A stretch of 29,440 nt of DNA from an uncultured virus (IMG/VR IMGVR_UViG_3300020048_000074). Lineage: Duplodnaviria; Heunggongvirae; Uroviricota; Caudoviricetes. Position 1 is the first letter of the stretch, and the number at the start of each line of letters is the position of its first letter. The DNA lies in the IMG/VR virus record IMGVR_UViG_3300020048_000074, positions 62,001 through 91,440 of that record; one strand, written 5' to 3'. Under the pieces are notes generated by a model. That model saw nothing but the letters and a program-made list of their open reading frames with translations, was not told the DNA's origin and did not search any database. Shown here one piece after another: positions 324-23,034 of this stretch. Made by a program: the position numbers and the translations under genes.

Positions 324-1217
324 TCATTTCGATTCTGCCTCCGCAAGAAACGCTTTATATCCTTTAGAAAGCTCCATCCTAAATATAAAATTGTTTCGCG
401 TTTTTTTACTCTTTATATGGCTGATAATAAACGCTTTCGCAAATGCATACGGTATCTCGATATCCACCTTAGCGGTTGCTCGTGTTCTCTCAGCTACATT
501 TCGTATTTGTTTTACATGGATGGTAAGCGAAGTACCATTATATTTCAATTTCATGTCTTCAGCCTTCGATGGCATTACCCACGCTTTCTGAGAATGCACC
601 TGACCTTCAATCAAAGTAGCTGTTTTGTTTTTAAGCATACGCATGACATTATCAGATTTAAGCGAGCCGGTTACTGACCATCCACCCATAAGCTTTGTCG
701 CTGCTAACACGGCACTCGGTTTAAGCAGCGGAAGTTTTTCAGAAACCTTTTCTACTTTCGTATATTCTTTTCCCGTGATATGACTTTTAACTTTCATAGT
801 AACCCGGGGCTTTGCACTTCCTGTCGTATACTGGTCCCTCAGCTTAACCAGAGCAGTTCCTATCAAATGAAGCGCGGCATGCTTCTCTCTCGGTACCCCG
901 GGGCCTTTGTCTATGTGATCGAATACTTCTTTGAATATGTTATGCGCAGTGTCGGGCTTGCTTGTCTTTATTTTTTCAACCAACGAATTGAAACCGGTCA
1001 CTCCATGCTTTTCCAGAATGGTGGAAATCTCCCCGCCCAAATTGGTAGTCATCGCGTGGTCAAAATAATTCTGAGCAGTTACTTCCGTTTTATCAAGCAC
1101 CTGTCTTTCACGATGGACAATGACCCACTTGTGCCCGGTCTTTTTCCATTGCCGCTTGTCTTGGTGAGTCCGTATCTCACCTTCCATGGCAGCTTTATGC
1201 TTCAGAAACAGAATCAT
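324..1217 (-). CDS. Basic hypothetical protein, putative virion cargo with N-terminal tag
   Basis: Start reassigned to MILFLKHKAA (GGAGG RBS at about 1224-1228). N-terminal GEIRTHQDKRQWKKTGHKWV resembles tags in neighbouring proteins. Confidence 0.8.
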   Translation of the reverse strand: MILFLKHKAAMEGEIRTHQDKRQWKKTGHKWVIVHRERQVLDKTEVTAQNYFDHAMTTNLGGEISTILEKHGVTGFNSLVEKIKTSKPDTAHNIFKEVFDHIDKGPGVPREKHAALHLIGTALVKLRDQYTTGSAKPRVTMKVKSHITGKEYTKVEKVSEKLPLLKPSAVLAATKLMGGWSVTGSLKSDNVMRMLKNKTATLIEGQVHSQKAWVMPSKAEDMKLKYNGTSLTIHVKQIRNVAERTRATAKVDIEIPYAFAKAFIISHIKSKKTRNNFIFRMELSKGYKAFLAEAESK

Positions 1218-3045
1218 AGGCGTCCTCCGGCTCCCTACCCATCGGGTAATCAAACGACCGAGCTATGGCTTCGATCCTGTCTTCATCTGAACTGAATTTC
1301 GATTTCAGCATATCAACAAGTTCCATTTTATTCGGTATGACATGCACATGCGTATACCGAGAATTCGTAGGGTGATCGATACTTACCACTTTAAGCGAAG
1401 GTGCAACCAATAGAAACTCTCGCTCATCCGCGTAGGCGGCTATATTATATTTATGTATAAGCTGTTCGGTACCATGATCCTCAGAGCCTTCTATCATGCT
1501 ATCAACGTCAACTCCAATAACTTTCGTCTCAGGTGTAAGATTTTCTTGATCTATAATAAAAATAGCGCCTGCCGAGTATTCTTCACCAACACTCGATGCT
1601 TTGGAAAAAGAAGCCATACCAAGCGGAATCACATCACCCACTTCACAGTTCATCCATTCCGTATTTTTTGATCCACGATACAGCTTATCGTCTTCAAGAA
1701 AATCGTACTCTGTAAAATGCCCATCGACTATAGTTTCTATCAATGAATCCCCTGACCACGTTCCCCATTCTTTTCCGTCTTCCTTCATTTGAAAATAATC
1801 CCGAGCTTTTTTTCTGTTTCCTTTAACCTCACCCCCAACCCAACGGCCAAGCAGGTGAAGCTGAATCCCATCCCATTCATTTCCACTGACGTCTTTCATG
1901 GACGTTGTTTCTTCAATCTCGTCTTGACGTTTAAGCATTATTTCGGTTACCGCTTCAACCGCCTCGTTAAGCGACACGTTATTTACAAATGCATATCCTA
2001 TTATTTCGTCGTCATCAAACGAAACCTCTTCAGAATGACTTGATACTCCGTGACCCTCATAATGTATAGGCCCTTTTTCAAGATGGTCCTCATGCTCATC
2101 AGCCCACTTTTCAACTTCACTTGCGGACGGATAGGTATGCCCACCAAACACTGAACTTTTTATAGCATCCCGGATATAACTAACAGCGGCATACCGGGAA
2201 ACAACTTCGTCCCAGTCAAGATTAAGGCGTATCGCGTCATCAAGCATGTGGTCTACTTGTTTGTCGCCTTCTACGAAAATCCTACGCGCCATGTCTGAAG
2301 TCATGTCTATAAACTCTTGCTTGTTTTTAAACAGCCGGTCTTCCAACCATTTTGAAATCTCAGCATGAGTCCTGTCTAATGCAAGAAACGCATTGAACTT
2401 ATCAATGCCCTCGTCTCCAAACACATCCTTTAACAGGGTATCGGTCGCCTCGTTATAATCTGTTATTTTTTTTAAGTTATTGTTTATCTCTATTTTTGTT
2501 TTCCATTTGTCATGCCTGCCTATCTTATCTGCTTGTTCAATAATCCTGTCAATTTTTTCCTGAGCCATAGGGTCCATTTTATGATGCATATCCGCTATAG
2601 CCTCTTCAGGGGTAACCGCAGGGCTTGATACCGCGATTCCAGTTGTCATCTCGTAGACCCGATAGTCTGGAAGCATTTCGATGTCATGGAGCGACGATCC
2701 CTGCAACTCGTTGCATACGAAAAACTTATGGCCACGCGATTCAAACGAGCTGTGCACATTTTCATCGGGCACCCGTACTGCCATGTTTACTCCACCAGCC
2801 TCCAACCTAACGTTTACATAAGTACCATCCGGCTGATTGTATGCCTCATGATTTTTCGACACCTTATCTTTTTTCTTTTTGTCCTGCTTAGGCTCATCCA
2901 CCTTTTTGTTTTTCTTGGCCATGTACTCATCGTAGTCCACTTTCACATAAAAGGTTTGAGTAAACGTTTTACCTTTTTTGGTTACCTGCTTTTCAACGGG
3001 AACCAAAGTGCTTATATTCTTTTTACCCTTTATAAACAAAAGCAT
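1195..3045 (-). CDS. ADP-ribosyltransferase (R-S-E class, VIP2/Alt-like C-terminal domain)
   Basis: Start MLLFIKG after GAGGT RBS. C-terminal motifs LYRG ... ASFS ... DEREFLL appear in the order of the R-S-ExE catalytic triad. Confidence 0.75.
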   Translation of the reverse strand: MLLFIKGKKNISTLVPVEKQVTKKGKTFTQTFYVKVDYDEYMAKKNKKVDEPKQDKKKKDKVSKNHEAYNQPDGTYVNVRLEAGGVNMAVRVPDENVHSSFESRGHKFFVCNELQGSSLHDIEMLPDYRVYEMTTGIAVSSPAVTPEEAIADMHHKMDPMAQEKIDRIIEQADKIGRHDKWKTKIEINNNLKKITDYNEATDTLLKDVFGDEGIDKFNAFLALDRTHAEISKWLEDRLFKNKQEFIDMTSDMARRIFVEGDKQVDHMLDDAIRLNLDWDEVVSRYAAVSYIRDAIKSSVFGGHTYPSASEVEKWADEHEDHLEKGPIHYEGHGVSSHSEEVSFDDDEIIGYAFVNNVSLNEAVEAVTEIMLKRQDEIEETTSMKDVSGNEWDGIQLHLLGRWVGGEVKGNRKKARDYFQMKEDGKEWGTWSGDSLIETIVDGHFTEYDFLEDDKLYRGSKNTEWMNCEVGDVIPLGMASFSKASSVGEEYSAGAIFIIDQENLTPETKVIGVDVDSMIEGSEDHGTEQLIHKYNIAAYADEREFLLVAPSLKVVSIDHPTNSRYTHVHVIPNKMELVDMLKSKFSSDEDRIEAIARSFDYPMGREPEDAYDSVSEA

Positions 3046-3055
3046 ACGGTGTACC

Positions 3056-4088: not shown

Positions 4089-4089
4089 A

Positions 4090-4476
4090 CTAAACCCCCA
4101 GCCCATGGTAACCCTTTTCGTTCGGCGCTCGGGGGATACGGTCAAGCTCCCCGGGTATCATGTGAATCTTTGCTGCGGTGATTGACTCTTCAGCCATCGA
4201 CCGAGCCTTTTCAAACGTGTCGCGCTCTCGAAGCTTCATGGAGTATCGGTGCTTCAGGTCCACCCCTTTTTCATCCATAGTTGCAGGATTCTCACTGACA
4301 TAAGGGGCCAACCGGGTACGAAGCGCTTTCAACTCATCGTTGACCCGGCGTATTCCTTCGTCAGTGGCTTCAAGAATTCCTTCCTGCTCCTTTATAATCA
4401 TGAGCGAATATGATTCACTCCGCGCACGCTCCTTATCGAGCTTGGCCATGTCGCCGTCAAGCTGACTGTTTTTCAT
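4090..4476 (-). CDS. Hypothetical coiled-coil protein
   Basis: Start MKNSQLD after GGAGG RBS, overlapping the end of the giant gene; charged, helical composition. Confidence 0.75.
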   Translation of the reverse strand: MKNSQLDGDMAKLDKERARSESYSLMIIKEQEGILEATDEGIRRVNDELKALRTRLAPYVSENPATMDEKGVDLKHRYSMKLRERDTFEKARSMAEESITAAKIHMIPGELDRIPRAPNEKGYHGLGV

Positions 4477-7400
4477 TACGAGCCTCCGCTTCATATTTAT
4501 TGAGCATCCCAAGGAACCCTGTCTCATCCAGTGCGTCAACGTCACGTGGATTGCCCATGATCTCTTGCTCTTTCCGCTTGGTTTCCATGATGTCTTCACC
4601 GCGCATATCAAACGGATTCGTACCGCTCAGTACATACGCATGGGTATCACGATCCTGACCCTTCCTGAACACACGGGCGTTTCGCTGCTGGAAAGCCGCG
4701 TAGCTGTCCGGGATATCCAAATGGAATGTAACCGTGCCACCGTGCTGAAGGTTGTGCCCGGATTCCAGCGACTTGGTTCCAACGATAAAGCGAAGCGGAT
4801 CATCCGGATCGTTGAATCGCTTCTTTAACTTGGCAATGGCTGCATTGGATGATCCTTCACCCTGACCTTGAATCACGCCAACGCATCCCGGCCCGAATTC
4901 CGCTTCAAGGCGTTCCACTGCGGTCTTCACGGCATGGATAACCGGGGACCCGGGCTTCGACAGATGGATAACCGCTTTTTCCCCGGGGTGGATGTTTTTC
5001 ATGATGTCCACCATCTTGTCGAGCTTGGCATTCTGCGTCGAATTGCCATTGGTCACGATCGCGTAGTTTCTGGAATCGCGCTGCGCCGACGCTCCCGGCT
5101 TCTTGGCGTCCCGGTCCATTCTATACTGACTCTCGCTTGCAGCATACCGCTTTCGTTGCTCAGGGGTAAGCGCCAAGCGCTCAGTGCTCACGGTGTTTTC
5201 AATCGGCAACGCGTTTTTCTGAGTGTATACCCATTCAGATATCTCTTTCCGGAAAGCATCGTTGGCAGCATCGGCAAACATTCCCGTTCCCTGATTCAAG
5301 CCATCGTACCGACTGTTGAACTCGCTCATTGAACCAAGCGTATGGTTGGGATCAATGAAGTTGATTTTCCGGTACAACTCGCTTTTCTTATTCTTGATGT
5401 TCGTGCCTGACATGGCGATCTTGAGCGGGATGTTCGAGATGTCCATGAGTGACTTGAACCGCCCAGCCTGTCCGGTGCCCGCTGTCATTTCGTGAATCTC
5501 GTCAACCACGATCATGTCGTAGCCTGCCTCTTTAATCATGGCAGCGTCTTCACGAAGCGCGTCCTGCGATATGATGTGAATGCCGTCTTGGTTATGCCGA
5601 GCCAACCGGTCCGCTCTCGAAGTGGTTTCCGTTGAACTATGAACAAGTTTGGCCATCTCCGGTTCAAGGAACTTATTTGACTGCTTATGGAAGTCACCAC
5701 GGGTCTTGGCCGGGGTTACCACAAGAATCTTTTTCGCTCCCTTGTTGTGCATCGCTTCCATCATGGCCGCGTATGCCATACCGGTTTTACCGATACCTGC
5801 TTCAAAGTCAAGGATGACCGCGCTCTTTTCCATAAAGAAACGCAAACCGGCTTCCTGTGCGGCATCCAACTTTACACCCGGGTTTACACCTGTCGGAAGG
5901 TACCCGTTATTCATCTCATGCCGCTTGATCTTTGCAGTTATCGATTCATCTTTCCGAAGCTGTTCATTACGCGTAAAGAAAGTATCCAACTGATCTTTTC
6001 GTATCTCAAGCACGAGACGCTTGGACCTGCCCTCTTTCAAAGTCTTGATCGAGTACGATCCCTTTGGCAGCCCGGCTTTCTTTGCCTTGTCACGAGCACG
6101 TGTAAGGTCTTTTCCGATATCCACCTGCACCACGTCCCCGGGCGGGTCTTCCAGCGCGTTTATCATAGCCGCTACCACGCGAAGGGAACCAACGGCGGTG
6201 CCAAGCGCCCGCTGCCCGGCAGTAAGCTGCTTCAGGGCATGGCCGTTTGCAGACGCCATGGACAAAATCGCCTCGGCATCATCGGTATCCCGGGCAAGGT
6301 TGCGCAGCTCATCGGCATTCGCAAACCGCCTATCGGATTCCGAGATGGCCTTGGTGACCACTTTTTCGCGTTCCTTGGCCGAATACTCTTCAAGAGCCTT
6401 TCTAACGGTTTCTCCCTTGCCATCGGACTGTAGTTTTATCGTCACGGCACGCACTACCGCTTCCAGCCCGAGGTTTTCTATGGTATCCGTGGAGAAAGTA
6501 GCGCCTGAGCCGTAAATATCGCCTAGCAGCCCGTTTAGAGCTGAAATAGAGCCTTGGTCTACGTGGGTTTGGATAGAATCGGACTGCGCATTGAGCCGAT
6601 CGTACAACTGCATGTTTTTCTGAGTCTCTATTTGCTGCTCTATCTCTGCCAGAATGTCTTCAGGAATGCTTTCGGAGTCACCTGAGTACGTGTCACCCAC
6701 TCGAAGCGTGACATGGGAATCCGCTTGGCCCTTCCCGATCGCTTTCATGGCCTTCTTGAACTCTTTCCGGGCCGTAAGTATCTGGATCGCCTTGTCCTTG
6801 TCCAAAAGCTTGCGCAATTCCGGTTTCATGTTCGGGTCGCCGGGCGCGTAGTCCTTCATGAGCGTATCGAGCGCTGCTTTTTCCAAATCCTTGGTCTGCT
6901 CCACGACTGCCTTTTTAACCAGCTCATTCGTTTTCTCTTCAATCGCCGCATCCGTCTCTTCAGGCGTCTTGTTTTTGACCTTGCCCTCTACCATGGCCTT
7001 GGCCTTGTCCGCGATAGCATCCATCTCGGCAGCGCTTATCTGGGAACGAAGCTCTTCCTGCGTGACACCCAAAATATTCGTTACCTTGTTGGTATACTCT
7101 TCCCGGGCAATTTTCTTGGCAGACACTTCAGCTTTTCGATTTGACACCTGCTCAGCCATCTCTTCTTTGGATAATTCCCGGAGGTCTTCGTTTCGTTTCT
7201 TCTCGACCTTCTTACGCTTCTCTGCGTAATCTTCCCGGGAAAGCACCTTGTCTACCTTCAGGTGATTCAGCTTGCCGCCCGCACCGCCGACCACGACATA
7301 CCCACCGTCCGAGGTTCCCTGCAATAGAACCTTGGCTCCACGGATTGTTACCCAACGCATATTTCGGCCTTTTATATCAGCCGCCGTATAATGCATCTTG

Positions 7401-10400
7401 GCCCCTGTAGCTTTTTCAAGGCTATGGAACCAATAGAATCGAGTCATCATGCCATGATCGCACAGGTACCAATCCCCTATGTCACTTTTCAATAACGTCA
7501 TGTCGGGTATCTTAATGTCTCCAATACTTTTCTGGACACGCGCCCCGAGCGAATTGATGCGGGATTCCATAACTCTCCTTAATGCCAAATCGTCGATGGC
7601 GTTGAGTATAATCTGCTTGTTATCCAATACCCTTTGTATCTGAGCGTCTACATCGGAATCCGATACCGTGGAGTATGCCCGCTTGCCCGCGCCCTTGTAC
7701 GGATCGCGCATAGATTGAATTTCACTTACGGAACCTTCAAACTTCTCGCCCTTTGGTTGACCTTGAGCACGATAGCGCAACGATCCACCGTTGTCTATGC
7801 GCCATGCTTTGTTTCCATCCCAAATGATATTGTCCTCAGCCAAGCCGAGGACATCCCAGTTACCAAGCAACGCATCGGCTACGAAACCGGCCTTGAGACT
7901 TTCGACCGCTTTCTTCCGCGTCTCGCTGTCTAGTTCGCCCATGGGGGTTCCCTCGATATAATCGGCAAGCTGCCCCAGCCCTTTGGGTCCTTCTTTAAGC
8001 TGGACATGGGGAACGGGCACGCCGAGTATTTCGTATATACGATTCGCCGTATACTCATCTTTAAGATGTGCTGAACCTGTTGAATACTTGAGCACCTTCT
8101 TGTCACCGCCCGGCAGTTCAAGCAGCATCGCGCCACCCGTGGTCCCGCCAAGATTTTTCAATACCTTGTGATCCGGAAGCTGCCGAGGGTTTCGTGTCGC
8201 GCCGTTATCCGGATAGGTATAAATCCACCGGCCATTCCTCCATACCTTTTTAATGTACTTCGTGGCCATGGCTTTTTCTATCTCTTCAGTCTTTGCCTCT
8301 TCTTTGGCTGCGACCTTCTTTTCTACTTTGCCCTTTACCGCTTCCTTATCTTTACCGGAAACAAGTTTATCAAAATCCTTTTTCAGGTTGGGCATCCCAT
8401 TGAACGGGTCGCCATCGGAAGGCTCACGGAAATCGTACATATCGTAGCTGTTGGCGTTCTCTCGTGCCTTCTCATCTTTCGGCTCTGCCTTTGGCTTTTC
8501 GGTCATGGCTTTAAACAACTCAGAAAGATATTTTCTGCGTAATGATTTTTCCATAAAGCGACCTTTACCCTCTCCCGATATCAGCTTAGGCGGCGGGCCT
8601 CCACTACTGTCACGGAACGACCACGAATCGGCCATCTCCCGGACCATCTCAAACGACTGCTCGTTTTTGGTGTTCCCTAAAATGACATCGACCGGGACGT
8701 ATCTCCCGGACTTTCCCATGAACCTTGACAACGCCCGCTCTGCCGCGATCTTTCTCGGGCAGTGCATATAGTGGCATTCAAGCGAGTAGTCACTGTTAAG
8801 AAAACGTTGCGCGGTGCCCACTGCCGAACGCGGCGTCTTCATGGTAGCGTCAACCACAACATTTAAACCATAGCTTTGTGCAATGGACATTACTTTCTCA
8901 AGGATGTCTGAAGACTCTTCGTGAACCTGAAAAGCATTCCACCCTTCGTATTCTTTGAGCATGCCCTTGATCTCATCGGCATCGAGCACAACGGTCTTTT
9001 CAGGATCGTACACTTGGCCTTTGAACCATGACTTTCCCGATCCACCACGACCGCCGAGCATTATCAGTACCGGCTTCTCACCCTTCGCGGGCTTTGCAGC
9101 AAGAAACTTTTCCGGGGGTATGACGCTCCGAATAATATCCTCGTGCAACCGAGTCCGATCTTCATCATATACCGCGCCAGCACCTTCCCCAGATATCCTG
9201 TATTTATGAATGGTCTGCTCAATATGCGCCAAACGCGCCTCGGCAGCATCAACTCGATTACGGGTCCCCGGGACTGCCTCTTCTGCCTTGTCAAGAATGG
9301 AATCCTTGGTGATAGCGGGATCATCCATCTTGGCTGCCCAGTCGTCTGCCTTGAACGACGCAGGCTCCACGTATTCTGTGGATGATCCTTCAGGTGCGGA
9401 ACTTACCGGCGTCTTCTTTCCTTCACCTGAAAAGCCGGTAACCTTATTCCATTCCACTTTCCGTATATTATTATTACCTATATCGACTGACGCTCCCTTT
9501 TGGCCCTCAGCCACGACCTTACCTTTTATGGTGTCTCCGTCTTTCCCCTTAAACTCCAAAGTGTCGCCCACTTCGATATTGTGCGTACCATATCCGCTCT
9601 TGCTGCCTCGAACGTCTTCCGGGTCTTTCTTATTTCGCTTCGTGGAATCCGGTGCGGCAGCTCCACGCTTTTTCGGGTCTGGCTCATCGGCTGCCGGTTG
9701 CTTGCCATCGGTATCCGCTACCCACTTGCCGCCCTGCTTCTTTACTTTCCTACCGCCATACACCCGGCGCGTCCCCTCGGGTAACGCTTTGGCCTTTTCC
9801 AAATCATATAAAATATCAGATGCCTTCTTTATCCCTTTAGGTTTAGATGCTTCTAATACTTCGTATACCAATTTTGGTATTGACAAAGTAATAGCGTACC
9901 CTTTTGGATCACGCCTCCTAAGCACGTAGTCTACTTTCATAGTTTCCATTTTTTTATCATACTCAACTTGTTGTTTATTATCCATTTTATTATACTTTGT
10001 TCGGTTAAAAACCACTTGAGGTACTTGTACTTCAGCAAACTCAGAATATTCCCCGCTATCTATTATATCTCGAAGTGACATGAGTTTATTATTATGGTTG
10101 TATTGCTTGCGTAATGCATTTATAACACGCCCACGCACCATTGGGGACAACTTGTTTATTTTTCCCATGTCAACATACACAGAAAGCCCAGTTTTTGTAG
10201 TATTAAAGTTGTCTTCTTTTTTTTGCTCAATCATTAGCTTAACATCATCTTCTTTTTTTATTCGTTCAGCATATAACGTATTTTTGTGTTTAACATATTC
10301 TTGCAAGTCACTAAACCCAGCTTTTTTCATTTCTTTTAAACGGTCTATAAATGCGTCAACCCCGCGCTGACCATACATTTTAACTGTTTTACCCGTATCG

Positions 10401-12118
10401 GTGTCGAGTATACTAAACATACCTTCCTGATCTTTTATTGGTGTTACCTGATATACTTCTTTCGACTTAATTTTTACAGCCTCGGGTTTACCCTTTACAC
10501 CCGCAGCGAACATTCCAGCAACCTCACTAGCATCAGTAAGCGGTTCCAACTTGACAACACGCATTTTGGTTACACCAAGCGCTTTCAGTTTTTTCAACAC
10601 CTCTTCTTTATTACTGTCGTTCAAATCAACCTTGTCGCTTATCACGAGGTCTTCGTAATCCTTCCCCGGAGCGACACCCCAAATGACATACTGGTTACCT
10701 TTTTTTACCGATACACTCTTCGACGGACTTTCGGAAGTTTTCGCTTTTCTGTTTTCCCTAAATGAGTCGCCCTCTGAGCGTAATAACCCATTTAACTTGT
10801 TATACCTTCGAGCATATTCTTGTAATAAAATCCCTTTTGCCTCTTCACCATATTTTTTTTCGTGAAGTGTAATTGCAGCCATAAGCTCTTTGTTGTCGTA
10901 TGGCTGAACAGTATGCTCATTGTTATCAAAAGTTTTCTCTGCAATGTTTTCAGCTACAGTCTTAATTTGTTTTTTGTCTTTTGAAGATATACCGACAACG
11001 GCAGCCTTACCTTTTGGAACATCGCGCCAGTCGCCCTCAGCTACTTTCTTACGCCCCTTAGACACCGTGCCTACTGGCATCTTTTTTGCCTTTTCCAAAT
11101 TCTTGGATTCCATCTCAGCTAAATGGGTATAGTATTCCGGGTCTTCCTGAAGGTGATCGAGCGCGATCTGCTTGGCAACCTCTTTGTCGTCTGTATGCTC
11201 CATCTCAGTATGGATTCCCATGGCAAGTTGTGATGGTCGAATCTTTTTCGTACTCTTGCCTACTTGGTACTTGCCCTTGTGCTTTAAGCTCTCAGCAAGC
11301 TTGGAAGCTTTCTCTATTTTTAATGCTGCCGCTAATTCTCTACGCGGCTGCGCGGTTATTCCATCATATAGGCTTACCACTTGAAGTTTCCCACCTTTTA
11401 AACCAACACCGATGATGACGCCCTGTTGCCAATCGCCACCGGCTTCAAAATACGCCACGCTTGAAGTGAGGCGAATCATATCACAATTTTCTAGGTCCAC
11501 GCCTTTTGGAAAACCTTCAAGCTCTTTTAAATTGTATCTATTCTTGCCTTCCAATAGACCTGAAGCATTAAGAGCAGCTACTAGCGCTTTTCTATCCTTA
11601 TTCTGCTCTGCGGTGTACACTACAGGTTTAGACTTCAGCTTTGAAAACGTAGGGTCAAGCTCAGACGACTTTTTCAGTTTCATACCTACCCGATCCTTCA
11701 ACATTGTTTTGAACGTGGCCATATCGTACACCGACATGCTCTGGAAAAACCCCGGGGAATCGTACTGTCGGCAATACGCGTGCTTTGCTTCCAACGCGTT
11801 ATTATATCCTAACATAACCTTGTCTTCGTCGTAAGCCTTTGTCTTCGGGTCCTGTTGATGAATCACGAACACTTTATCAGAAAACTGGTTTGGTCCGAGG
11901 TAACAATCGACGTGATCTCCATCGGTACCTTCAGTGGCTCGAATATACCCGTAGGCCATGTGCATGAACGTTCTCCATACATGGCCGTCTTCGGACGTAC
12001 CCTGCCGAATGCTGCCGCGCTCGTTCTCAATAGAAACGGGAAGACCCTGATAAGTGGTCTTCCCTTGCAGCTTTCGACTTCGCCAGTCTACCGCGTTCGT
12101 AATTATTCCAAGTTTCAT
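4457..12118 (-). CDS. 2553-aa polyvalent protein: iPyPase domain, DUF5661-like, SH3/KOW-like, zeta-toxin P-loop kinase, PI3K/HipA-like kinase, SWI2/SNF2 helicase
   Basis: SIEN..GS.R..YGYIR.TEG.DGDHVD..YDEDKVMLG (iPyPase); MGIHTEMEHT..IALDHL.EDP.YY; GGRGGSGKS..DADEIK..VHEESS (zeta); EY.AN.IY..LGVPVP..DALLGNWD..RIDNGGSL (kinase fold); GIGKT, DEIH, SGT, GHNLQ, QRNARVFRKGQ (SF2). Confidence 0.9.
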   Translation of the reverse strand: MKLGIITNAVDWRSRKLQGKTTYQGLPVSIENERGSIRQGTSEDGHVWRTFMHMAYGYIRATEGTDGDHVDCYLGPNQFSDKVFVIHQQDPKTKAYDEDKVMLGYNNALEAKHAYCRQYDSPGFFQSMSVYDMATFKTMLKDRVGMKLKKSSELDPTFSKLKSKPVVYTAEQNKDRKALVAALNASGLLEGKNRYNLKELEGFPKGVDLENCDMIRLTSSVAYFEAGGDWQQGVIIGVGLKGGKLQVVSLYDGITAQPRRELAAALKIEKASKLAESLKHKGKYQVGKSTKKIRPSQLAMGIHTEMEHTDDKEVAKQIALDHLQEDPEYYTHLAEMESKNLEKAKKMPVGTVSKGRKKVAEGDWRDVPKGKAAVVGISSKDKKQIKTVAENIAEKTFDNNEHTVQPYDNKELMAAITLHEKKYGEEAKGILLQEYARRYNKLNGLLRSEGDSFRENRKAKTSESPSKSVSVKKGNQYVIWGVAPGKDYEDLVISDKVDLNDSNKEEVLKKLKALGVTKMRVVKLEPLTDASEVAGMFAAGVKGKPEAVKIKSKEVYQVTPIKDQEGMFSILDTDTGKTVKMYGQRGVDAFIDRLKEMKKAGFSDLQEYVKHKNTLYAERIKKEDDVKLMIEQKKEDNFNTTKTGLSVYVDMGKINKLSPMVRGRVINALRKQYNHNNKLMSLRDIIDSGEYSEFAEVQVPQVVFNRTKYNKMDNKQQVEYDKKMETMKVDYVLRRRDPKGYAITLSIPKLVYEVLEASKPKGIKKASDILYDLEKAKALPEGTRRVYGGRKVKKQGGKWVADTDGKQPAADEPDPKKRGAAAPDSTKRNKKDPEDVRGSKSGYGTHNIEVGDTLEFKGKDGDTIKGKVVAEGQKGASVDIGNNNIRKVEWNKVTGFSGEGKKTPVSSAPEGSSTEYVEPASFKADDWAAKMDDPAITKDSILDKAEEAVPGTRNRVDAAEARLAHIEQTIHKYRISGEGAGAVYDEDRTRLHEDIIRSVIPPEKFLAAKPAKGEKPVLIMLGGRGGSGKSWFKGQVYDPEKTVVLDADEIKGMLKEYEGWNAFQVHEESSDILEKVMSIAQSYGLNVVVDATMKTPRSAVGTAQRFLNSDYSLECHYMHCPRKIAAERALSRFMGKSGRYVPVDVILGNTKNEQSFEMVREMADSWSFRDSSGGPPPKLISGEGKGRFMEKSLRRKYLSELFKAMTEKPKAEPKDEKARENANSYDMYDFREPSDGDPFNGMPNLKKDFDKLVSGKDKEAVKGKVEKKVAAKEEAKTEEIEKAMATKYIKKVWRNGRWIYTYPDNGATRNPRQLPDHKVLKNLGGTTGGAMLLELPGGDKKVLKYSTGSAHLKDEYTANRIYEILGVPVPHVQLKEGPKGLGQLADYIEGTPMGELDSETRKKAVESLKAGFVADALLGNWDVLGLAEDNIIWDGNKAWRIDNGGSLRYRAQGQPKGEKFEGSVSEIQSMRDPYKGAGKRAYSTVSDSDVDAQIQRVLDNKQIILNAIDDLALRRVMESRINSLGARVQKSIGDIKIPDMTLLKSDIGDWYLCDHGMMTRFYWFHSLEKATGAKMHYTAADIKGRNMRWVTIRGAKVLLQGTSDGGYVVVGGAGGKLNHLKVDKVLSREDYAEKRKKVEKKRNEDLRELSKEEMAEQVSNRKAEVSAKKIAREEYTNKVTNILGVTQEELRSQISAAEMDAIADKAKAMVEGKVKNKTPEETDAAIEEKTNELVKKAVVEQTKDLEKAALDTLMKDYAPGDPNMKPELRKLLDKDKAIQILTARKEFKKAMKAIGKGQADSHVTLRVGDTYSGDSESIPEDILAEIEQQIETQKNMQLYDRLNAQSDSIQTHVDQGSISALNGLLGDIYGSGATFSTDTIENLGLEAVVRAVTIKLQSDGKGETVRKALEEYSAKEREKVVTKAISESDRRFANADELRNLARDTDDAEAILSMASANGHALKQLTAGQRALGTAVGSLRVVAAMINALEDPPGDVVQVDIGKDLTRARDKAKKAGLPKGSYSIKTLKEGRSKRLVLEIRKDQLDTFFTRNEQLRKDESITAKIKRHEMNNGYLPTGVNPGVKLDAAQEAGLRFFMEKSAVILDFEAGIGKTGMAYAAMMEAMHNKGAKKILVVTPAKTRGDFHKQSNKFLEPEMAKLVHSSTETTSRADRLARHNQDGIHIISQDALREDAAMIKEAGYDMIVVDEIHEMTAGTGQAGRFKSLMDISNIPLKIAMSGTNIKNKKSELYRKINFIDPNHTLGSMSEFNSRYDGLNQGTGMFADAANDAFRKEISEWVYTQKNALPIENTVSTERLALTPEQRKRYAASESQYRMDRDAKKPGASAQRDSRNYAIVTNGNSTQNAKLDKMVDIMKNIHPGEKAVIHLSKPGSPVIHAVKTAVERLEAEFGPGCVGVIQGQGEGSSNAAIAKLKKRFNDPDDPLRFIVGTKSLESGHNLQHGGTVTFHLDIPDSYAAFQQRNARVFRKGQDRDTHAYVLSGTNPFDMRGEDIMETKRKEQEIMGNPRDVDALDETGFLGMLNKYEAEARNEKQSA

Positions 12119-12137
12119 GGCATCCCCTATGCGTGTT

Positions 12138-13025
12138 TCACAACCAGCTTTTTTTGGACTTCACAAGAATGATCGGCCTACTGGCAAACAGCTTGCTGAA
12201 TAAAGTACCGATGGATTTTGCTAAATCTGAAAGCGACATGCAAAACTTTATGTTTTCGCCCGTGGACAGCGGCATCTTGGTATAGAAATCCTTGGCATCG
12301 GGAACTATATCGTAGCCGGTTCCCGCCATGGTTGCCGTGCCTGCGTCCTCTCCCGTGGTCTTTATCATCTCCGCTTTTCCCTTGGTGCAAAATACAATCG
12401 CGTCTTGATGATACATTTTACCAATGGCCATCATGTTCGCTCGGTCGGCATCATGTGCCATTACCATGAAGCTCTCTTCAGGATTCACGTACTTGCCCTT
12501 GCACTGCGTAAAAATATAACCTTCGTCTTTCAACGTAGCGACGAGTTGGTCATGCCTTTTTGCAATCTGGGCATCGGTCATTTTCATGTCCTCTTCATTT
12601 TCCGGATTACGTCCGGCACTCATGAGAGAGAACGTGGTTTTCGTAAGCAGGATATCCAAATCGCGTTTGGTCTGTATGGTCTTCTCGCGCCCCATGCCCT
12701 TTGGCCTTCGAGCGTAATGCTGCATCAAACGCTTAACTTCTTTTTCGGTTACACCCTTCAAGGTGCCCGTATGCGCGGACTGCACCTGCTTCTTTTCGGT
12801 AGACTGCTTCTCGGCTTCAGGCTCGGCCTTCGATTCTTTCTTTCCTATAACAAGTTTATTGGAAGCTTGTTTCTGCCCGGTGCCCTCGGCCTCAGCAGCG
12901 CCCGGCTGCCTGTATTTTTTAGGCTGGGCGTACACGTACTCCCACTCGCCCTTCGATCCCTTATAGCGCCTCAAATACTTGTGAGTCATGGCCTTGAGCA
13001 TTTCACTGGGTTTAAGTAATTTCAT
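12138..13025 (-). CDS. DUF3293-like domain protein with N-terminal tag
   Basis: Start MKLLKPS after GAGGGG. Pattern FSLMSAGRNP..G.Y..PEESF..YHQDAIVF; N-terminal KYLRRYKGSKGEWEYVY. Confidence 0.7.
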   Translation of the reverse strand: MKLLKPSEMLKAMTHKYLRRYKGSKGEWEYVYAQPKKYRQPGAAEAEGTGQKQASNKLVIGKKESKAEPEAEKQSTEKKQVQSAHTGTLKGVTEKEVKRLMQHYARRPKGMGREKTIQTKRDLDILLTKTTFSLMSAGRNPENEEDMKMTDAQIAKRHDQLVATLKDEGYIFTQCKGKYVNPEESFMVMAHDADRANMMAIGKMYHQDAIVFCTKGKAEMIKTTGEDAGTATMAGTGYDIVPDAKDFYTKMPLSTGENIKFCMSLSDLAKSIGTLFSKLFASRPIILVKSKKSWL

Positions 13026-13599
13026 CCGGTCCCCTCTTCCCATCGTAATCTTTATAGTATGCAACTCTTTCGGAGTGCCAACCGATCAACGAGACAAACT
13101 GCCCCGGTACCATTCCATTCTTATAGTCTTCAGGAAATAAATCAAACTGTGCCTTCATCATTACCCGATCCACAAACGAGGCAGATGCCACCCCATACAA
13201 ATTGCAATGGAACGGGACCCAACCAATTTTCTTCCAGAACCATCGCGTATACCAAATGAATAAAAGTACAGGTATGCCCTGTACCTGCTTAGGCTCTAAA
13301 TACTGGTGATACGAACTTAACGCCTCTTCAATTCTTTCAAGCCTATAACTCGGCGCGTAATTCGGTGCCATGCAAAATGACGGGGAAGGAATGGCCGGGT
13401 CCAACGCCGAGGTAACCCGTATTCCGCTTACCAACTTCTTTTTATTATTTTCCCAGATAGCGTGCTCGTACAGGTACCCTTTAAAATAAAGTCCAACGTG
13501 CGTGTATGCTGACCCGGTGAAATAAACGATAGCCTTGTTTAGGATATCCAATATTTTATTGCCGCTCTTTGCGTAGCGCCACACGGGTATCGATAACAT
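13012..13599 (-). CDS. Permuted papain-like (YiiX/NlpC-P60) fold protein; catalytic Cys apparently replaced
   Basis: FTGSAYTHVGLY..LYEH..GIRV at the N-terminus; C-terminal ASASFV..DLFP..VPGQF aligns by eye to the CSELV..TPGDL consensus. Confidence 0.6.
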   Translation of the reverse strand: MLSIPVWRYAKSGNKILDILNKAIVYFTGSAYTHVGLYFKGYLYEHAIWENNKKKLVSGIRVTSALDPAIPSPSFCMAPNYAPSYRLERIEEALSSYHQYLEPKQVQGIPVLLFIWYTRWFWKKIGWVPFHCNLYGVASASFVDRVMMKAQFDLFPEDYKNGMVPGQFVSLIGWHSERVAYYKDYDGKRGPDEIT

Positions 13600-13991
13600 T
13601 ACTTTTTAACCCATATACACAAGGCCATACTAGACTTTCTTAATTTCTTTTTAGCCTTCAGTGACTTGCCACCTGACTCTATGCCACGCAGCCTATCGTA
13701 GTATGCTTTTGACATTCCATGAGACGAATTAAGCGCCTTCGATGCTTGCTGCTTGGTTACGCTTTTCCAGTCTATCTTGCCGCCATTAAAACCCATGGCG
13801 TGGCTTATCTCAGAATAACCCCCGTCTGTTTTTTTCTTAGGCGCTGCGTCACTCTGTTTAGACTCGCTGGTTTCGCTTTCGCTTTCCGCTTTGACTTGAG
13901 TTGGTTGCTTAATTTTAACCCACTTACCTTCAGCCATCTTGGTGTAACCACGTGACACTGTGCCTATAGGCATCTTCCTAGACTTTTCCAT
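13599..13991 (-). CDS. Basic hypothetical protein with N-terminal tag
   Basis: Start MEKSRKMPIGTVSRG after AAGGGG RBS; very Lys-rich. Confidence 0.8.
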   Translation of the reverse strand: MEKSRKMPIGTVSRGYTKMAEGKWVKIKQPTQVKAESESETSESKQSDAAPKKKTDGGYSEISHAMGFNGGKIDWKSVTKQQASKALNSSHGMSKAYYDRLRGIESGGKSLKAKKKLRKSSMALCIWVKK

Positions 13992-13992
13992 T

Positions 13993-14124
13993 TTAATCCC
14001 CTTCGTCGTTTGGGTCAAACCCAAGTATCGCCACAACGTCTTGCGGAGTTGATTCAAGCTCATGATCGTCATCAAGAGATACATCCGTCTTCCACGGAAC
14101 GTTTTCTACTTTTCCGATATACAC
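13993..14124 (-). CDS. 43-aa acidic peptide (MYIGKVENVPWKTDVSLDDDHELESTPQDVVAILGFDPNDEGD)
   Basis: Below the ORF-track cutoff. GTG start 1 nt after the topoisomerase stop; it fills the gap exactly up to the next ATG. Confidence 0.65.
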   Translation of the reverse strand: MYIGKVENVPWKTDVSLDDDHELESTPQDVVAILGFDPNDEGD

Positions 14125-14125
14125 T

Positions 14126-15019
14126 TCAGGCTGCTTCAATTTTGCGCCTCCACTTTTCAAAAATTGCTGGATTGATATACGACGACAGCGCTACCTTGCG
14201 CGTGTTCCCCAGTTTCTCGGCCACCGCGTCGGCAACCTTCAATACTGCCTTCTTGTACTGGGCCATGTTCTCAGGCTGCCCGACTTTCTTCATTGCCAGC
14301 ATCGCAGCATGCGTGGCTACGTGCGTCCTGAAATCCTTGCTCTGGAATCCGGCCCCGTTGCCAAGCGCTTTGGTATACAACAAGAGGCGGTCCCCGGTTA
14401 TTCCAAACACCTTGCCGGTATCCCCCGCAAGCTTCTTTCGCTTAATCATCATCTTTGCCACTTCAGGGGAAGTAATAGGGATAGACAAGTGCACGCCCTT
14501 CTTGCCCACAAAATCCAAACGGACGACCCCGCCCTTTACGAGCACGTGCCGTCCTTCAAGCGTGGTAGCACCAAATGCATCCACGGTCGCATCCGTTTCT
14601 TTTTCGGACCCCGGGCGTATCCCCGTGTCTATGATAAGCGCGAGGCATTCCGCTTCCACTTTGCCCTTGCGCATATTCTTTGCGTTCTCAGCCACAAGAT
14701 CATCGTATGAACGGTTCAATGAGTTGATCCTTGAAAACTTTTCCTTTGCTGAAGACGTTACGTGTTTGGGGTTATACAGGTATTGCGTCCTGCCCTTGCC
14801 ATCCACGCCGGTAACCATGATCCGGGAATTCGGGTCTTTCGCGTATTGGACATTCACCCATGCCGGGGGAACGGTAACCGCTTCCTTCACTCTCTTTGGA
14901 AGGTTGTCACGAGACGCCACCGCGATCCACTTCCCTTCGGCAATCTTTTTAGACTTACCGCTCGGGCTTACTGATCCAACGGGCCGCTTGGCTCCCTTCA
15001 TGAGAATGACGAATCTCAC
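14126..15019 (-). CDS. DNA topoisomerase IB (bacterial/poxviral type)
   Basis: PPAW..V..G.DGKGRTQYLY, GIRPG (R), FGATTL, FVGKKGV (K), SKDFRT (R), LGNT..V..SSYINP (catalytic Tyr). Confidence 0.95.
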   Translation of the reverse strand: MRFVILMKGAKRPVGSVSPSGKSKKIAEGKWIAVASRDNLPKRVKEAVTVPPAWVNVQYAKDPNSRIMVTGVDGKGRTQYLYNPKHVTSSAKEKFSRINSLNRSYDDLVAENAKNMRKGKVEAECLALIIDTGIRPGSEKETDATVDAFGATTLEGRHVLVKGGVVRLDFVGKKGVHLSIPITSPEVAKMMIKRKKLAGDTGKVFGITGDRLLLYTKALGNGAGFQSKDFRTHVATHAAMLAMKKVGQPENMAQYKKAVLKVADAVAEKLGNTRKVALSSYINPAIFEKWRRKIEAA

Positions 15020-23023: not shown

Positions 23024-23034
23024 ATGGCGCGATC

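What the first reader, a model, noticed from the sequence alone, without database searches (positions are those of the whole stretch)
1123..15005. Tag A: a ~22-aa 'P[VI]G[TS]VS.G..K.AEG.W' peptide shared by unrelated proteins
Seen in five places: LEKA-KKMPVGTVSKGRKKVAEGDW (giant protein, ~11025-11100), MEKS-RKMPIGTVSRGYTKMAEGKW (13918-13991), LMKG-AKRPVGSVSPSGKSKKIAEGKW (TopoIB, 14927-15005), and the looser LEKA-KALPEGTRRVYGGRKVKKQGGKW (~9720-9802) and HKA-AMEGEIRTHQDKRQWKKTGHKW (1123-1200). Each follows the K-[ASG] site directly and precedes unrelated sequence. Inference: a small beta-hairpin that becomes the new N-terminus after cleavage and serves as a DNA-tethering, packaging or ejection signal.
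Basis: partly seen in the sequence, partly recalled or inferred. Interest (0 to 1): 0.8.

Follow-up and report, generated by a model that had tools for sequence, protein, structure and literature searches.

The report
Cut-site-plus-hairpin tag on phage cargo
An uncultivated phage, like hundreds of related metagenomic phage proteins, starts its head-encoded enzymes and the modules of a giant multi-enzyme protein with the same roughly 30-residue unit, a probable capsid-protease cut site followed by a small basic hairpin, which looks like a reusable label for proteins carried in the capsid, though neither cutting nor loading has been measured.

Summary
All five copies are at the stated places on the minus strand. 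Three are significant by leave-one-out profile (E 3e-4 to 4e-9). The fourth is significant with a broader profile (E 8.6e-7). The fifth is weak in the window (E 0.83), but all 33 homologues of its protein carry a recognisable variant.

The window is the head module of a 91-kb myovirus contig. It encodes portal, TopoIB, small proteins and a 2553-aa polyvalent protein, followed by protease, scaffold and HK97-type capsid protein.

A profile of the tag finds 489 protein clusters among 1.84 billion. The tag sits near N-termini or at module joints of InPase, NUDIX, ART, SAM-lyase, TopoIB, Zeta and helicase proteins. No Pfam, PHROG or PDB-sequence family matches it.

It always follows h-x-K-[AGS]: 16 of 16 copies retrieved by the hairpin alone. 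The same motif marks the capsid protein at about the position of HK97's K103/S104 cut. AlphaFold predicts a confident three-stranded mini-sheet.

Best reading: a portable cassette of protease site plus retained basic handle that marks capsid cargo. Cleavage, packaging and DNA binding are all inferred. Verdict: a new variant of a known kind; interest 0.6.

The parts
11015..11098 (-). Tag A copy in the giant polyvalent protein, aa 341-368 (LEK|A, then P-V-G-T-V-S ... A-E-G-D-W), directly after DUF5661 (aa 293-339)
   Evidence: Leave-one-out E 1.7e-9; 53.5 bits with the outside profile. AlphaFold: helix end, loop and three short strands, pLDDT 88-94.
9710..9802 (-). Looser Tag A copy in the giant protein, aa 773-803 (LEK|AKALPEGTRR...GGKW), with a second I-K-K|A motif 10 residues upstream
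   Evidence: Not recovered by leave-one-out, but 25.2 bits, E 8.6e-7 with the profile of 214 outside copies.
13908..13991 (-). Tag A copy at the very N-terminus of the 130-aa protein p161 (MEK|SRKMPIGTVS...AEGKW). The gene is 13599-13991, with its start at ATG 13991 behind a GGGG Shine-Dalgarno-like box.
   Evidence: Leave-one-out E 3.7e-9. The same start is used in the database copy P0105.
14915..15004 (-). Tag A copy at the N-terminus of TopoIB, aa 6-35, behind the leader M-R-F-V-I (15005-15019). The gene is 14126-15019, with a GTG start overlapping the upstream stop codon.
   Evidence: Leave-one-out E 3.1e-4. AlphaFold: residues 23-26 and 29-33 form a hairpin that is part of the N-domain sheet. 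34 of 109 TopoIB homologues carry the tag.
1116..1205 (-). Diverged Tag A variant at the N-terminus of p309 (leader MILF at 1206-1217, then LKHK|AAMEGEIRTHQDKRQWKKTGHKWVIV). The gene is 324-1217.
   Evidence: Weak in the window (6.1 bits, E 0.83). All 33 homologues keep leader + K-A + hairpin; P0290 scores 31.4 bits and P0266 24.4 bits.
4457..12118 (-). Carrier: 2553-aa polyvalent protein (InPase 18-141, DUF5661 293-339, Zeta_toxin 1010-1149, SNF2 helicase 2088-2487). It holds nine [LIMFV][EQ]K[AS] motifs.
8204..8281 (-). A different tag ('Tag B': IEK|AMATKYIKKVWRNGRWIYTY) behind the same kind of site, giant aa 1280-1305. It is a related cassette, not Tag A.
   Evidence: Profile-profile comparison with Tag A gives only 10 aligned columns at the G-K/R-W turn, probability 16%.
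12927..13001 (-). Tag B at the N-terminus of p308 (MLK|AMTHKYLRRYKGSKGEWEYVY; DUF3293 / SAM-lyase-like cargo). In locus L001 p161 and p308 are one fused protein, joined at ELAK|SMHKYIRKY.
15416..17023 (-). Context: portal gene that opens the block. Its C-terminus has an acidic Gly-rich tail followed by PMEK|S.

Best explanation
Tag A is the conserved half of a portable cassette of about 30-35 residues that a lineage of uncultivated myoviruses places in front of proteins encoded in the head gene block.

The cassette has three parts:
1. A short greasy leader (in stand-alone genes) or a helix end (at joints inside polyproteins).
2. The motif hydrophobic-x-Lys-[Ala/Gly/Ser].
3. A basic mini beta-sheet: P-[IV]-G-T-[VI]-S ... 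K-K-[VI]-A-E-G-K-W-[VI]-x-V.

Proposed mechanism:
- The proteins are built into the procapsid.
- The HK97-type head maturation protease cuts after the Lys, as it probably does in the capsid protein, scaffold, portal tail and itself. This splits the 2553-aa polyvalent protein into single enzymes.
- Each released module keeps the basic hairpin at its new N-terminus. The hairpin serves as a common handle that holds the cargo inside the head, on acidic scaffold or portal segments and later on the packed DNA, until it leaves with the DNA.

Shown: the cassette, its spread, its fixed position behind K-[AGS], its restriction to structural gene modules, its predicted fold, and conservation as strong as that of the enzyme core.

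Inferred: cleavage, encapsidation, the binding partner, and delivery.
For: (1) A real and widespread unit. The profile finds 489 clusters at E<=1e-3 and 98 at E<=1e-10 among 1.84e9 representatives. The best 150 proteins hold 214 copies, 1-4 per protein. The Lys lies within 12 residues of the called N-terminus in 36 copies, at residues 13-40 in 65, and further inside in 112.

(2) Diverse cargo. 43 of these 150 proteins have a Pfam family at E<=1e-5. The families are InPase, DUF5661, S-AdoMet_lyase, ART-PolyVal, NUDIX, Topoisom_I, LPD1, Zeta_toxin, RelA_SpoT, ddrB-ParB, RadC, SNF2, UvrD, PolyA_pol and several DUFs. The 160 residues after the tag fall into 126 unrelated groups out of 202 segments.

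(3) Fixed link to the site. 16 of 16 distinct copies fetched by a hairpin-only pattern have h-x-K-[AGS] in place. In the 150 best proteins 213 of 214 copies do, and P3 is always L/I/F/V/M.

(4) The site looks like the protease site.
- L29, K31 and A32 are invariant in 14 capsid proteins down to 26% identity. The leaders before them vary.
- The capsid protein aligns to the HK97 model with aa 28 at profile position 99. This puts K31|A32 at about HK97's K103/S104 cut (passages of PMC10275583).
- The protease carries the same F-x-K|AL.AG.GV motif.
- [LIMFV][EQ]K[AS] occurs 19 times in 7358 aa of the block from capsid protein to portal, against 6 times in 21928 aa elsewhere in the contig (the motif was chosen after looking).

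(5) Location. In 10 of 10 annotated loci the tagged genes lie in the structural module. In 8 they are next to the portal or between portal and protease/capsid gene. L031 has five tagged genes in a row. In the own contig no hit reaching significance lies outside the head block.

(6) The tag goes with the phage lineage, not with the enzyme. Of 109 TopoIB homologues, 34 carry Tag A, 22 carry another upstream motif ([HQE]PR..G[KRQE][FW]), and the cellular-type ones carry neither.

(7) Fusion and fission occur at the sites. p161 and p308 are one protein in L001, joined at ELAK|S. The stand-alone p308 keeps the upstream PSEMLK|A.

(8) Selection. In 28 tagged TopoIBs, mean pairwise identity is 0.62 in site+tag, 0.59 in the catalytic domain and 0.38 in the leader.

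(9) Fold and charge. pLDDT is 88-94 over helix end, loop and three strands. Net charge of the five copies is +3 to +6.

Precedent: T4 internal proteins share only a capsid targeting sequence, and their lysines contact DNA (passages of PMC3012670).
Against: - No proteomic, N-terminal or biochemical data exist, and no cultured phage carries the tag. tblastn of two tag-bearing queries against 50,697 GenBank phage records gave no tag match.
- AlphaFold places L-E-K-A at the C-terminal end of a confident helix, whereas HK97's site lies in an unstructured part.
- In p161 the cut would remove only M-E-K. K-[AS] may therefore be a structural part of the tag and not a scissile bond.
- The first module of polyvalent proteins (InPase, NUDIX) has no tag in front. 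A tag is thus not needed by every fragment.
- In TopoIB the last strand(s) of the tag belong to the enzyme's own N-terminal sheet. The variola topoisomerase alignment starts at model residue 29. This fits a DNA-contact role in the enzyme as well as an address role.
- All tagged phages share one head type (portal phrog_12, protease phrog_1028, capsid phrog_752). The link to head genes could therefore partly be shared descent.
- The enrichment test used a motif defined after seeing the data.
Confidence: 0.5

Rival explanations
1. The tag is a small nucleic-acid-binding or localisation domain that works in the infected cell, giving each effector affinity for DNA or RNA. It has no role in loading or retention in the capsid. 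The K-[AGS] in front of it is part of the fold and is not cut.
For: - The tag is strongly basic, +3 to +6.
- It is predicted as a folded mini-sheet joined to a helix end that contains K-A.
- In TopoIB its hairpin sits in the N-terminal sheet, at the place of the first strand(s) of pox and human topoisomerase I.
- Several carriers act on DNA: TopoIB, SNF2, UvrD, ddrB-ParB.
- In p161 only three residues precede the supposed cut.
Against: - Many carriers do not act on nucleic acids: InPase, NUDIX, ART, SAM-lyase-like, RelA/SpoT, Zeta kinase. So does p309, a conserved ~300-aa protein of unknown function whose gene lies in the head block.
- The tag is confined to structural gene modules.
- It is replaced by other motifs on the same enzyme in other lineages.
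- The same h-x-K-[AS] motif is invariant at the capsid protein's HK97-equivalent cut position and is enriched in head proteins.
Confidence: 0.17
2. The tag is only the substrate-recognition element (a prime-side docking site) that lets the head protease find and cut the bond in front of it. After the cut it has no further function.
For: - The tag is invariably adjacent to K-[AGS]: 16 of 16 and 213 of 214 copies.
- 85 of 133 internal copies have a second h-x-K-[AGS] within 23 residues upstream, against 19.5% of control windows. This suggests that a short spacer is excised at a specialised processing joint.
- The tag is restricted to phages with one protease family.
Against: - The capsid protein, scaffold, portal tail and protease carry the site without the tag. 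Other joints carry a different tag (Tag B) behind the same site. The protease therefore does not need Tag A.
- About 25 conserved residues with a confident fold is far more than proteases of this kind are known to read (general knowledge, not tested).
Confidence: 0.1
3. The cassette is a functionally neutral joint: a conserved linker that spreads because it offers homology for recombination between cargo genes (module shuffling). It was carried to N-termini when polyproteins split.
For: - Fusion and fission happen exactly at cassettes, as with p161+p308 in L001.
- Arrays of tagged genes and multi-tag proteins occur.
- Downstream sequences are unrelated.
Against: - The DNA of the five copies is only 62% identical per column, with many synonymous changes. 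That is too low for efficient homologous recombination and indicates selection on the peptide.
- The tag is as conserved as the TopoIB catalytic core.
- It is kept at the N-terminus of 34 stand-alone TopoIBs and 33 p309 homologues.
Confidence: 0.08

Closest known systems
Capsid targeting sequence (CTS) of phage T4 internal proteins IPI-III and Alt, removed by prohead protease gp21
   Same: - A short shared N-terminal element is the only common feature of otherwise diverse proteins that are built into the prohead and injected with the DNA.
- It is coupled to a head-protease site.
- The cargo is basic, and its lysines contact DNA.
(Passages of PMC3012670; details of the CTS length and of gp21 are recalled.)
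   Different: - In T4 the shared signal lies before the cut and is discarded. Here the conserved ~25 residues lie after the presumed cut and would stay on the cargo.
- Here the unit also recurs inside giant polyproteins at module joints.
- The protease is of HK97 type with Lys at P1, not Glu.
- Nothing has been tested experimentally here.
Polyvalent proteins of phages and conjugative elements (Iyer, Burroughs, Anand, de Souza, Aravind 2017, PMC5512222)
   Same: - The carriers are typical members: InPase, ART-PolyVal, LPD1, Zeta, SNF2, ddrB-ParB, RadC and NUDIX in one polypeptide.
- They are encoded among head genes and thought to be packaged and processed.
   Different: - That paper proposes processing mainly by zincin-like metallopeptidase domains inside the proteins (passages). 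No such domain was found in the window's giant protein.
- The passages and word searches I made in the paper do not mention a conserved cut-site-plus-hairpin joint. Its FTP supplements were not seen.
HK97 capsid maturation cleavage (gp4 protease, K103/S104 of gp5)
   Same: - Lys at P1 and a small residue at P1'.
- The window phage's capsid protein matches the HK97 capsid model, with K31|A32 at about the equivalent position.
   Different: - HK97 cuts its own delta domain and its protease. Use of the site to partition enzyme cargo, and a conserved hairpin behind it, are not described there.
- Cleavage in this phage is inferred only.
First beta-hairpin of the type IB topoisomerase N-terminal domain
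   Same: - In the TopoIB copy, the K-K-I-A-E-G-K-W-I-A part is predicted as a hairpin within the N-domain sheet.
- Structural alignments to variola topoisomerase start at model residue 29, and several of those to human topoisomerase I at residue 26.
   Different: - Cellular-type TopoIBs have a G-F-x-Y...G hairpin there and neither the leader, the K-[AGS] site nor the P-x-G-T segment.
- The same tag occurs on many proteins without any topoisomerase fold.

Membership tests
Any catalogued protein family (Pfam-A, PHROGs v4, PDB chain sequences) | Significant profile or sequence match of the tag peptide | tested here: not met
   - Five 46-56-aa tag peptides against Pfam at E<=10: 0 families.
- Two tag peptides and all carriers against PHROGs: no family covering the tag.
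- Profile A1 against 177,635 PDB sequences: one hit at E 1.5, a repeat protein.
- HMMER filters drop many matches above about E 0.1.
Polyvalent proteins (Iyer et al. 2017) | Several unrelated effector or enzyme domains in one polypeptide, including signature domains of the class | tested here: met
   The giant protein has InPase, DUF5661, Zeta_toxin and SNF2. Tag-bearing database proteins have ART-PolyVal, LPD1, ddrB-ParB, RadC, NUDIX and others.
Polyvalent proteins (Iyer et al. 2017) | Phage version encoded in the head-morphogenesis neighbourhood | tested here: met
   The window genes lie between the portal and protease, scaffold and capsid protein. 10 of 10 annotated related loci lie in structural modules.
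Polyvalent proteins (Iyer et al. 2017) | Processing by an in-built zincin-like metallopeptidase (MPTase). The paper proposes this as a common theme, not a strict requirement. | tested here: not met
   No MPTase-PolyVal or other peptidase family in the giant protein at E<=0.01.
T4-type capsid targeting sequence | The shared signal lies N-terminal to the protease site and is removed | tested here: not met
   The conserved residues lie C-terminal to K-[AGS]. The leaders in front are short (3-8 aa in the window) and less conserved (identity 0.38 against 0.62). This holds only if K-[AGS] is the cut.
T4-type capsid targeting sequence | The signal is sufficient to load a foreign protein into the prohead | not testable with these tools
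   Needs an encapsidation assay.
HK97-type maturation site | Lys at P1 with a small P1' residue, at the capsid protein position equivalent to HK97 K103/S104 | tested here: met
   TIGR01554 major_cap_HK97: aa 28-203 match profile positions 99-261 of 385. L29, K31 and A32 are invariant in 14 capsid proteins. The HK97 site is taken from PMC10275583. The register is approximate, within 1-2 positions, because no residue-level alignment was printed.
HK97-type maturation site | The bond is actually hydrolysed by the phage protease | not testable with these tools
   No proteomic or biochemical data. The protease is named only by PHROG phrog_1028. It has no Pfam or NCBIfam hit.
Type IB topoisomerase N-terminal domain (TopoIB copy only) | The hairpin is part of the N-domain beta-sheet | tested here: met
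   AlphaFold model with mean pLDDT 90.6: strands 23-26 and 29-33 pair with strands 55-60, 67-72 and 78-82. Variola topoisomerase 2h7f_X aligns from model residue 29: Z 19.7, rmsd 5.1, 262 aligned.

The most novel reading that the evidence does not exclude
Tag A, together with sister tags such as Tag B and the [HQE]PR..G[KR][FW] motif, is a lineage-specific 'cut here and keep this handle' code. It would program three things at once: which proteins enter the procapsid, where the head protease divides giant polyproteins into single enzymes, and how each fragment is held on the DNA or portal and threaded out N-terminus first during infection. If so, the tag is a transferable protein-delivery signal, and unknown ORFs that carry it are injected effectors.
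Probability: 0.2. Interest if true: 0.85.

Novelty: new variant of a known kind. Interest (0 to 1): 0.6.

Why it matters
How tailed phages choose, partition and deliver protein cargo is understood for only a few model systems, such as the T4 CTS, P1 Dar and N4 vRNAP. Polyvalent proteins are known only from sequence analysis.

If this sequence-defined cassette does mark capsid cargo, three things follow:
- Hundreds of unannotated metagenomic ORFs could be read as virion-delivered effectors.
- It would point to where giant polyproteins are cut.
- It would supply a short, testable handle for loading foreign proteins into HK97-type capsids.

If the cassette proves to be only a DNA-binding hairpin or a linker, the finding reduces to a new small domain family in phage polyvalent proteins.

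Tried and rejected
- **Known-family searches for the tag.** Pfam at E<=10, PHROGs, PDB sequences, NCBIfam on p161 and p309, and one ESM Atlas look-up of p161 residues 1-36 (no usable feature hit; short structural neighbours only). Nothing was found.
- **Ribosomal protein L27 lead.** I recalled a likeness of A-K-K-x-P-V-G-T-x-S-x-G-R to the processed N-terminus of L27 and its Prp-cut leader. No L27 family appeared in the Pfam scan of the peptides, and the P1 residue differs (Lys, not Phe; recalled). Dropped.
- **Sso7d/Sac7d lead for Tag B.** A recalled likeness only; not tested.
- **Larger downstream module.** Tested whether the tag is the first hairpin of a larger conserved module, a lead from earlier finding e1-6069992. 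202 downstream segments of 160 aa fall into 126 BLAST groups. The largest group (33 segments) probably reflects second tags lying inside the 160-aa windows, which I did not mask. Not supported for Tag A.
- **Homology of Tag A and Tag B.** hhalign probability 16%, 10 columns. Not shown.
- **Cultured phages.** blastn of 4.9 kb of the window and tblastn of two tag-bearing queries against GenBank phages gave no tag match. One unrelated hit at E 0.2 lay outside the tag.
- **Cellular genomes.** Two exact degenerate patterns of the consensus gave 0 hits in one genome for each of 185,579 species. Diverged copies would be missed.
- **Capsid protein as receptor.** Complex prediction of the mature capsid protein (aa 32-480) with the tag peptide returned no verdict. 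It says nothing either way.
- **Literature.** Searches for polyvalent protein + prohead protease + cleavage (only Iyer 2017), InPase + virion + polyvalent (none), prohead protease cleavage and capsid targeting, the peptide strings themselves (14 unrelated papers), and SU10 capsid cleavage. None describes this unit.
- **Own-scan look-ups.** By place and by sequence they found nothing for this genome.

Full report
**Setting.** The window is bases 62001-91440 of a 91,440-base contig on which all long genes run on the minus strand. In transcription order the relevant block is:
- portal (window 15416-17023; Phage_portal)
- a small membrane protein
- a type IB topoisomerase (14126-15019)
- a 130-aa protein, p161 (13599-13991)
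- p195, then p308 (DUF3293 / SAM-lyase-like)
- a 2553-aa polyvalent protein (4457-12118; InPase, DUF5661, Zeta_toxin, SNF2)
- small membrane proteins
- p663 (weak PHROG 'virion structural protein' hit)
- p309

Just beyond the window lie a 716-aa head protein, a 264-aa head maturation protease (phrog_1028), a scaffold, a 480-aa capsid protein (phrog_752; SU10_MCP; TIGR01554 major_cap_HK97) and a tail sheath. The element is therefore a myovirus head module with a cargo block between portal and protease.

**The observation.**
- A four-copy profile, rebuilt leaving one copy out at a time and run on the six-frame translation of the whole contig, recovers three left-out copies as the best new hit. 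E-values are 3.1e-4 (TopoIB), 1.7e-9 (giant aa 341) and 3.7e-9 (p161). It does not recover the looser copy at giant aa 773.
- A profile built from 214 outside copies gives the aa-773 copy 25.2 bits, E 8.6e-7. The p309 copy ranks next in the contig but is not significant (6.1 bits, E 0.83).
- The p309 copy is nevertheless genuine. All 33 homologues found start with a greasy leader, K-A and a G-E-T-R/H-x-W-x-D-G-x-x-R-K-K-V-G-K-K-W hairpin, and two look canonical (31.4 and 24.4 bits).
- The DNA of the five copies is only 62% identical per column, with many synonymous differences. The peptide is what is conserved.

**Spread.**
- Relatives of the portal and TopoIB in viral contigs carry further copies. 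Two loci matched only through the tag.
- A 19-sequence alignment (A1) searched against 1.84 billion representative proteins found 489 clusters at E<=1e-3 and 98 at E<=1e-10.
- The best 150 proteins hold 214 copies, one to four each.
- The Lys of the preceding site lies within 12 residues of the called start in 36 copies, at residues 13-40 in 65, and deeper in 112.
- 43 of the 150 proteins have a Pfam family at E<=1e-5 (32 of 93; 11 of 57; one of these, LUC7, is below its cut-off). The families are InPase, DUF5661, S-AdoMet_lyase, ART-PolyVal, NUDIX, Topoisom_I, LPD1, Zeta_toxin, RelA_SpoT, ddrB-ParB, RadC, SNF2, UvrD, PolyA_pol, DUF6321, DUF6496, DUF7178 and Kyano_Gp96. This is the repertoire of polyvalent proteins (Iyer et al. 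2017, PMC5512222; abstract in the search listing, passages).
- The sequence after the tag is not shared: 202 downstream segments fall into 126 BLAST groups.
- No Pfam, PHROG, NCBIfam or PDB-sequence family matches the tag.
- A word-based search of the 5.8-billion-protein set returned 52 longer proteins. All came from metagenomic sources and none carried an informative name.
- No copy was found in GenBank phage records.
- None was found by two exact consensus patterns in one genome for each of 185,579 prokaryote species.

**Anatomy.**
- The consensus is [LIFVM]-x-K-[AGS]-[KR]-[KR]-h-P-[IV]-G-T-[VI]-S-x-G-x-K-K-[VI]-A-E-G-K-W-[VI]-P-V. A longer variant reads P-I-G-T-I-R-x-W-x-G-x-x-Y-K-K...G-x-W.
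- K, the second K of K-K, and W are invariant in A1.
- 213 of 214 copies follow K-[AGS] (A 102, G 75, S 36), and P3 is always L/I/F/V/M. That count is biased, because the profile contained those columns. An unbiased set, 16 distinct copies fetched from viral contigs with a DNA pattern of the hairpin alone, has the site in 16 of 16.
- 85 of 133 internal copies have a second h-x-K-[AGS] within 23 residues upstream, mostly 9-15 residues away. The rate in random windows of the same proteins is 19.5%. The window's I-K-K-A-S-D-I-L-Y-D-L-E-K-A is an example.
- Stand-alone genes start with 3-8 residues before the Lys. TopoIB starts M-R-F-V-I-L-M-K|G at a GTG that overlaps the upstream stop. p161 starts M-E-K|S behind a GGGG box. 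p309 starts M-I-L-F-L-K-H-K|A.

**Predicted structure.**
- For giant aa 285-420 (60-row alignment, mean pLDDT 81) AlphaFold gives a helix that ends in L-E-K-A, a loop (K-M-P-V-G-T) and three short strands. pLDDT is 88-94 across the cassette and falls afterwards.
- For TopoIB (70 rows, mean pLDDT 90.6) the first 16 residues are coil (block means 57 and 78). S-K-K-I and G-K-W-I-A form a hairpin within the N-terminal sheet.
- The structural alignment to variola topoisomerase starts at model residue 29, and several of those to human topoisomerase I at residue 26.
- Cellular-type TopoIBs have a G-F-x-Y...G hairpin at that place.

**Is K-[AGS] the protease site?** This is indirect.
- The capsid proteins of 17 related loci have variable leaders. 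These are followed by an invariant L-x-K-A-L-x-A-G-x-G-V-D-A..F-T-G-G-R-A-L.
- L29, K31 and A32 are invariant in 14 capsid proteins down to 26% identity.
- The capsid protein aligns to the HK97 capsid model with aa 28 at profile position 99. K31|A32 therefore falls at about the K103/S104 cut of HK97 (passages of PMC10275583).
- The protease carries the same F-x-K-A-L-x-A-G-x-G-V motif in its C-terminal part.
- The scaffold has R-P-E-K-A and R-L-E-K-A, and the portal ends in P-M-E-K-S.
- [LIMFV][EQ]K[AS] occurs 19 times in 7358 aa of the block from capsid protein to portal, and 6 times in 21928 aa elsewhere. That is 9.4-fold, but the motif was chosen after looking.

**Context elsewhere.** The hairpin pattern matched 21 stretches on 17 viral contigs. 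I annotated 10 loci with PHROGs. The rest were dropped as duplicates of the same contig, near-copies, or very short: L011, L034, L039, L040, L044-L050.
- All 10 tagged genes or gene arrays lie in structural modules of phages with the same head type (portal phrog_12, protease phrog_1028, capsid phrog_752, sheath phrog_279).
- 8 are next to the portal or between portal and protease/capsid gene.
- 2 (L037, L041) lie between phrog_772 and phrog_1004 genes near the sheath.
- L031 has five tagged genes in a row and L032 three.

**The tag follows the phage, not the enzyme.** Of 109 TopoIB homologues, 34 carry leader + Tag A and 22 carry another upstream motif ([HQE]-P-R..G-[KRQE]-[FW]). Six are called with under 25 residues upstream. 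The other 47, including the cellular type, carry neither.
- Within 28 tagged TopoIBs, mean pairwise identity is 0.62 in site+tag, 0.61 in the rest of the N-domain, 0.59 in the catalytic domain and 0.38 in the leader.
- Gene fusion and fission happen at the sites. In L001, p161 and p308 are one 363-aa protein joined at S-E-L-A-K|S-M-H-K-Y. In the window p308 stands alone, keeps P-S-E-M-L-K|A in front of its own tag, and an extra gene (p195) sits between the two.
- That second tag (Tag B: K-[AS], then (H)-K-Y-[IL]-+-K..G-x-W-x-Y-x-Y) recurs in the giant protein (aa 1280) and in L004 and L007. It is not demonstrably homologous to Tag A (hhalign probability 16%).

**Interpretation.** The evidence best fits a portable cassette made of a head-protease site plus a retained basic mini-sheet. 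The cassette marks proteins of the capsid interior and the joints at which polyvalent proteins are divided.
- The closest functional precedent is the T4 capsid targeting sequence (passages of PMC3012670). Here, however, the conserved part would stay on the cargo.
- What the retained hairpin binds is open. Candidates are DNA, the poly-acidic stretches of the scaffold and portal tail seen, or something else.
- Several facts argue for caution: the predicted helix around L-E-K-A, the three-residue leader of p161, the untagged first modules, and the integration of the hairpin into the TopoIB N-domain.
- These facts keep alive the rivals: a host-side nucleic-acid-binding domain, a mere protease docking element, or a neutral joint.

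**Known or new.** I found no description in the searched literature. I also found none in the passages and word searches of Iyer et al. 2017. The FTP supplements of that paper were not available to me and could contain it.

Earlier notes of this scan describe look-alike 'cut-site-plus-hairpin' cassettes in other genomes. They agree with this reading, but they are unchecked AI notes and not independent evidence.

I rate the finding a new variant of a known kind (cleavable address signals on phage head cargo; polyvalent proteins), with interest 0.6.

Noticed in passing
L013:14500-15294 (protease) and L013:12365-13807 (capsid protein); own contig 58499-59293 and 56364-57806, outside the window: The C-terminal part of the head protease repeats the segment that follows the presumed cut in the capsid protein (K|AL.AG.GVDA..FTGGRAL..ESL). 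This holds in all related loci examined. It could be how the protease is built into the procapsid, or a self-cleavage site.
   Followed up: partly
L013:15946-18096 (716-aa head protein just downstream of the window): The protein seems to be interrupted by an intein-like insert: Pfam Intein_splicing E 3.6e-4 (below the cut-off), with a Cys-started segment ending ...V-K-N before Cys. L008's SNF2 helicase likewise holds a LAGLIDADG_3 domain.
   Followed up: no
window 13012-13599 (-): p195, a 195-aa protein with no family match, sits between p161 and p308. Those two are fused into one protein in the closest relative L001, so p195 looks like a gene inserted at a cassette joint.
   Followed up: partly
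P0185-P0231, TopoIB homologues: 22 of 109 TopoIB homologues carry a different conserved motif upstream of the enzyme ([HQE]-P-R, 2-12 residues, G-[KRQE]-[FW]; for example D-H-P-R-D-E-D-G-K-F or D-P-N-E-P-R-D-A-E-G-K-W-T). It may be the equivalent tag of other phage lineages, and it shares the G-K-W/F turn with Tag A.
   Followed up: partly
window 8204-8281, 12927-13001; L001:3845-3958; L004:14393-14506, 15494-15607; L007:16363-16476, 18971-19084: A second tag class ('Tag B': K-[AS], then (H)KY[IL]+K..G.W.Y.Y) sits behind the same kind of site, interchangeably with Tag A.
   Followed up: partly
window 2900-3042 (-), N-terminus of p663: p663 probably starts at M-L-L-F-I-K-G|K-K-N-I-S... followed by K-K-G-K-T-F-T-Q-T-F-Y-V. 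BLAST alignments to relatives begin there. This would be another leader + K-G + basic hairpin of a third kind.
   Followed up: no
window 15416-15560 (-), portal C-terminus; scaffold in L013:13807-14478: The portal ends in a long Gln/Gly/Asp/Glu-rich tail followed by P-M-E-K|S. The scaffold has a run of about 30 Glu/Asp/Gly residues after R-P-E-K|A. These acidic stretches are candidate counter-parts for the basic tags.
   Followed up: no
L035:2050-2802 (+): A tagged 251-aa protein next to the portal matches a PHROG annotated as RNA polymerase sigma factor (phrog_351, E 9e-10). L043 has a similar untagged neighbour. This may be a transcription factor carried in the virion.
   Followed up: no
window 26483-29438 (-): By eye, a protein with an H-E-x-x-H motif and a von Willebrand-like C-terminal half lies next to a MoxR-like ATPase fragment at the window's right end. 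It was not scanned against any library.
   Followed up: no
window 23963-23972: A run of ten N (contig 85963-85972) interrupts an ORF (seen as XXX in the translation). A second run lies at contig 23024-23033.
   Followed up: no
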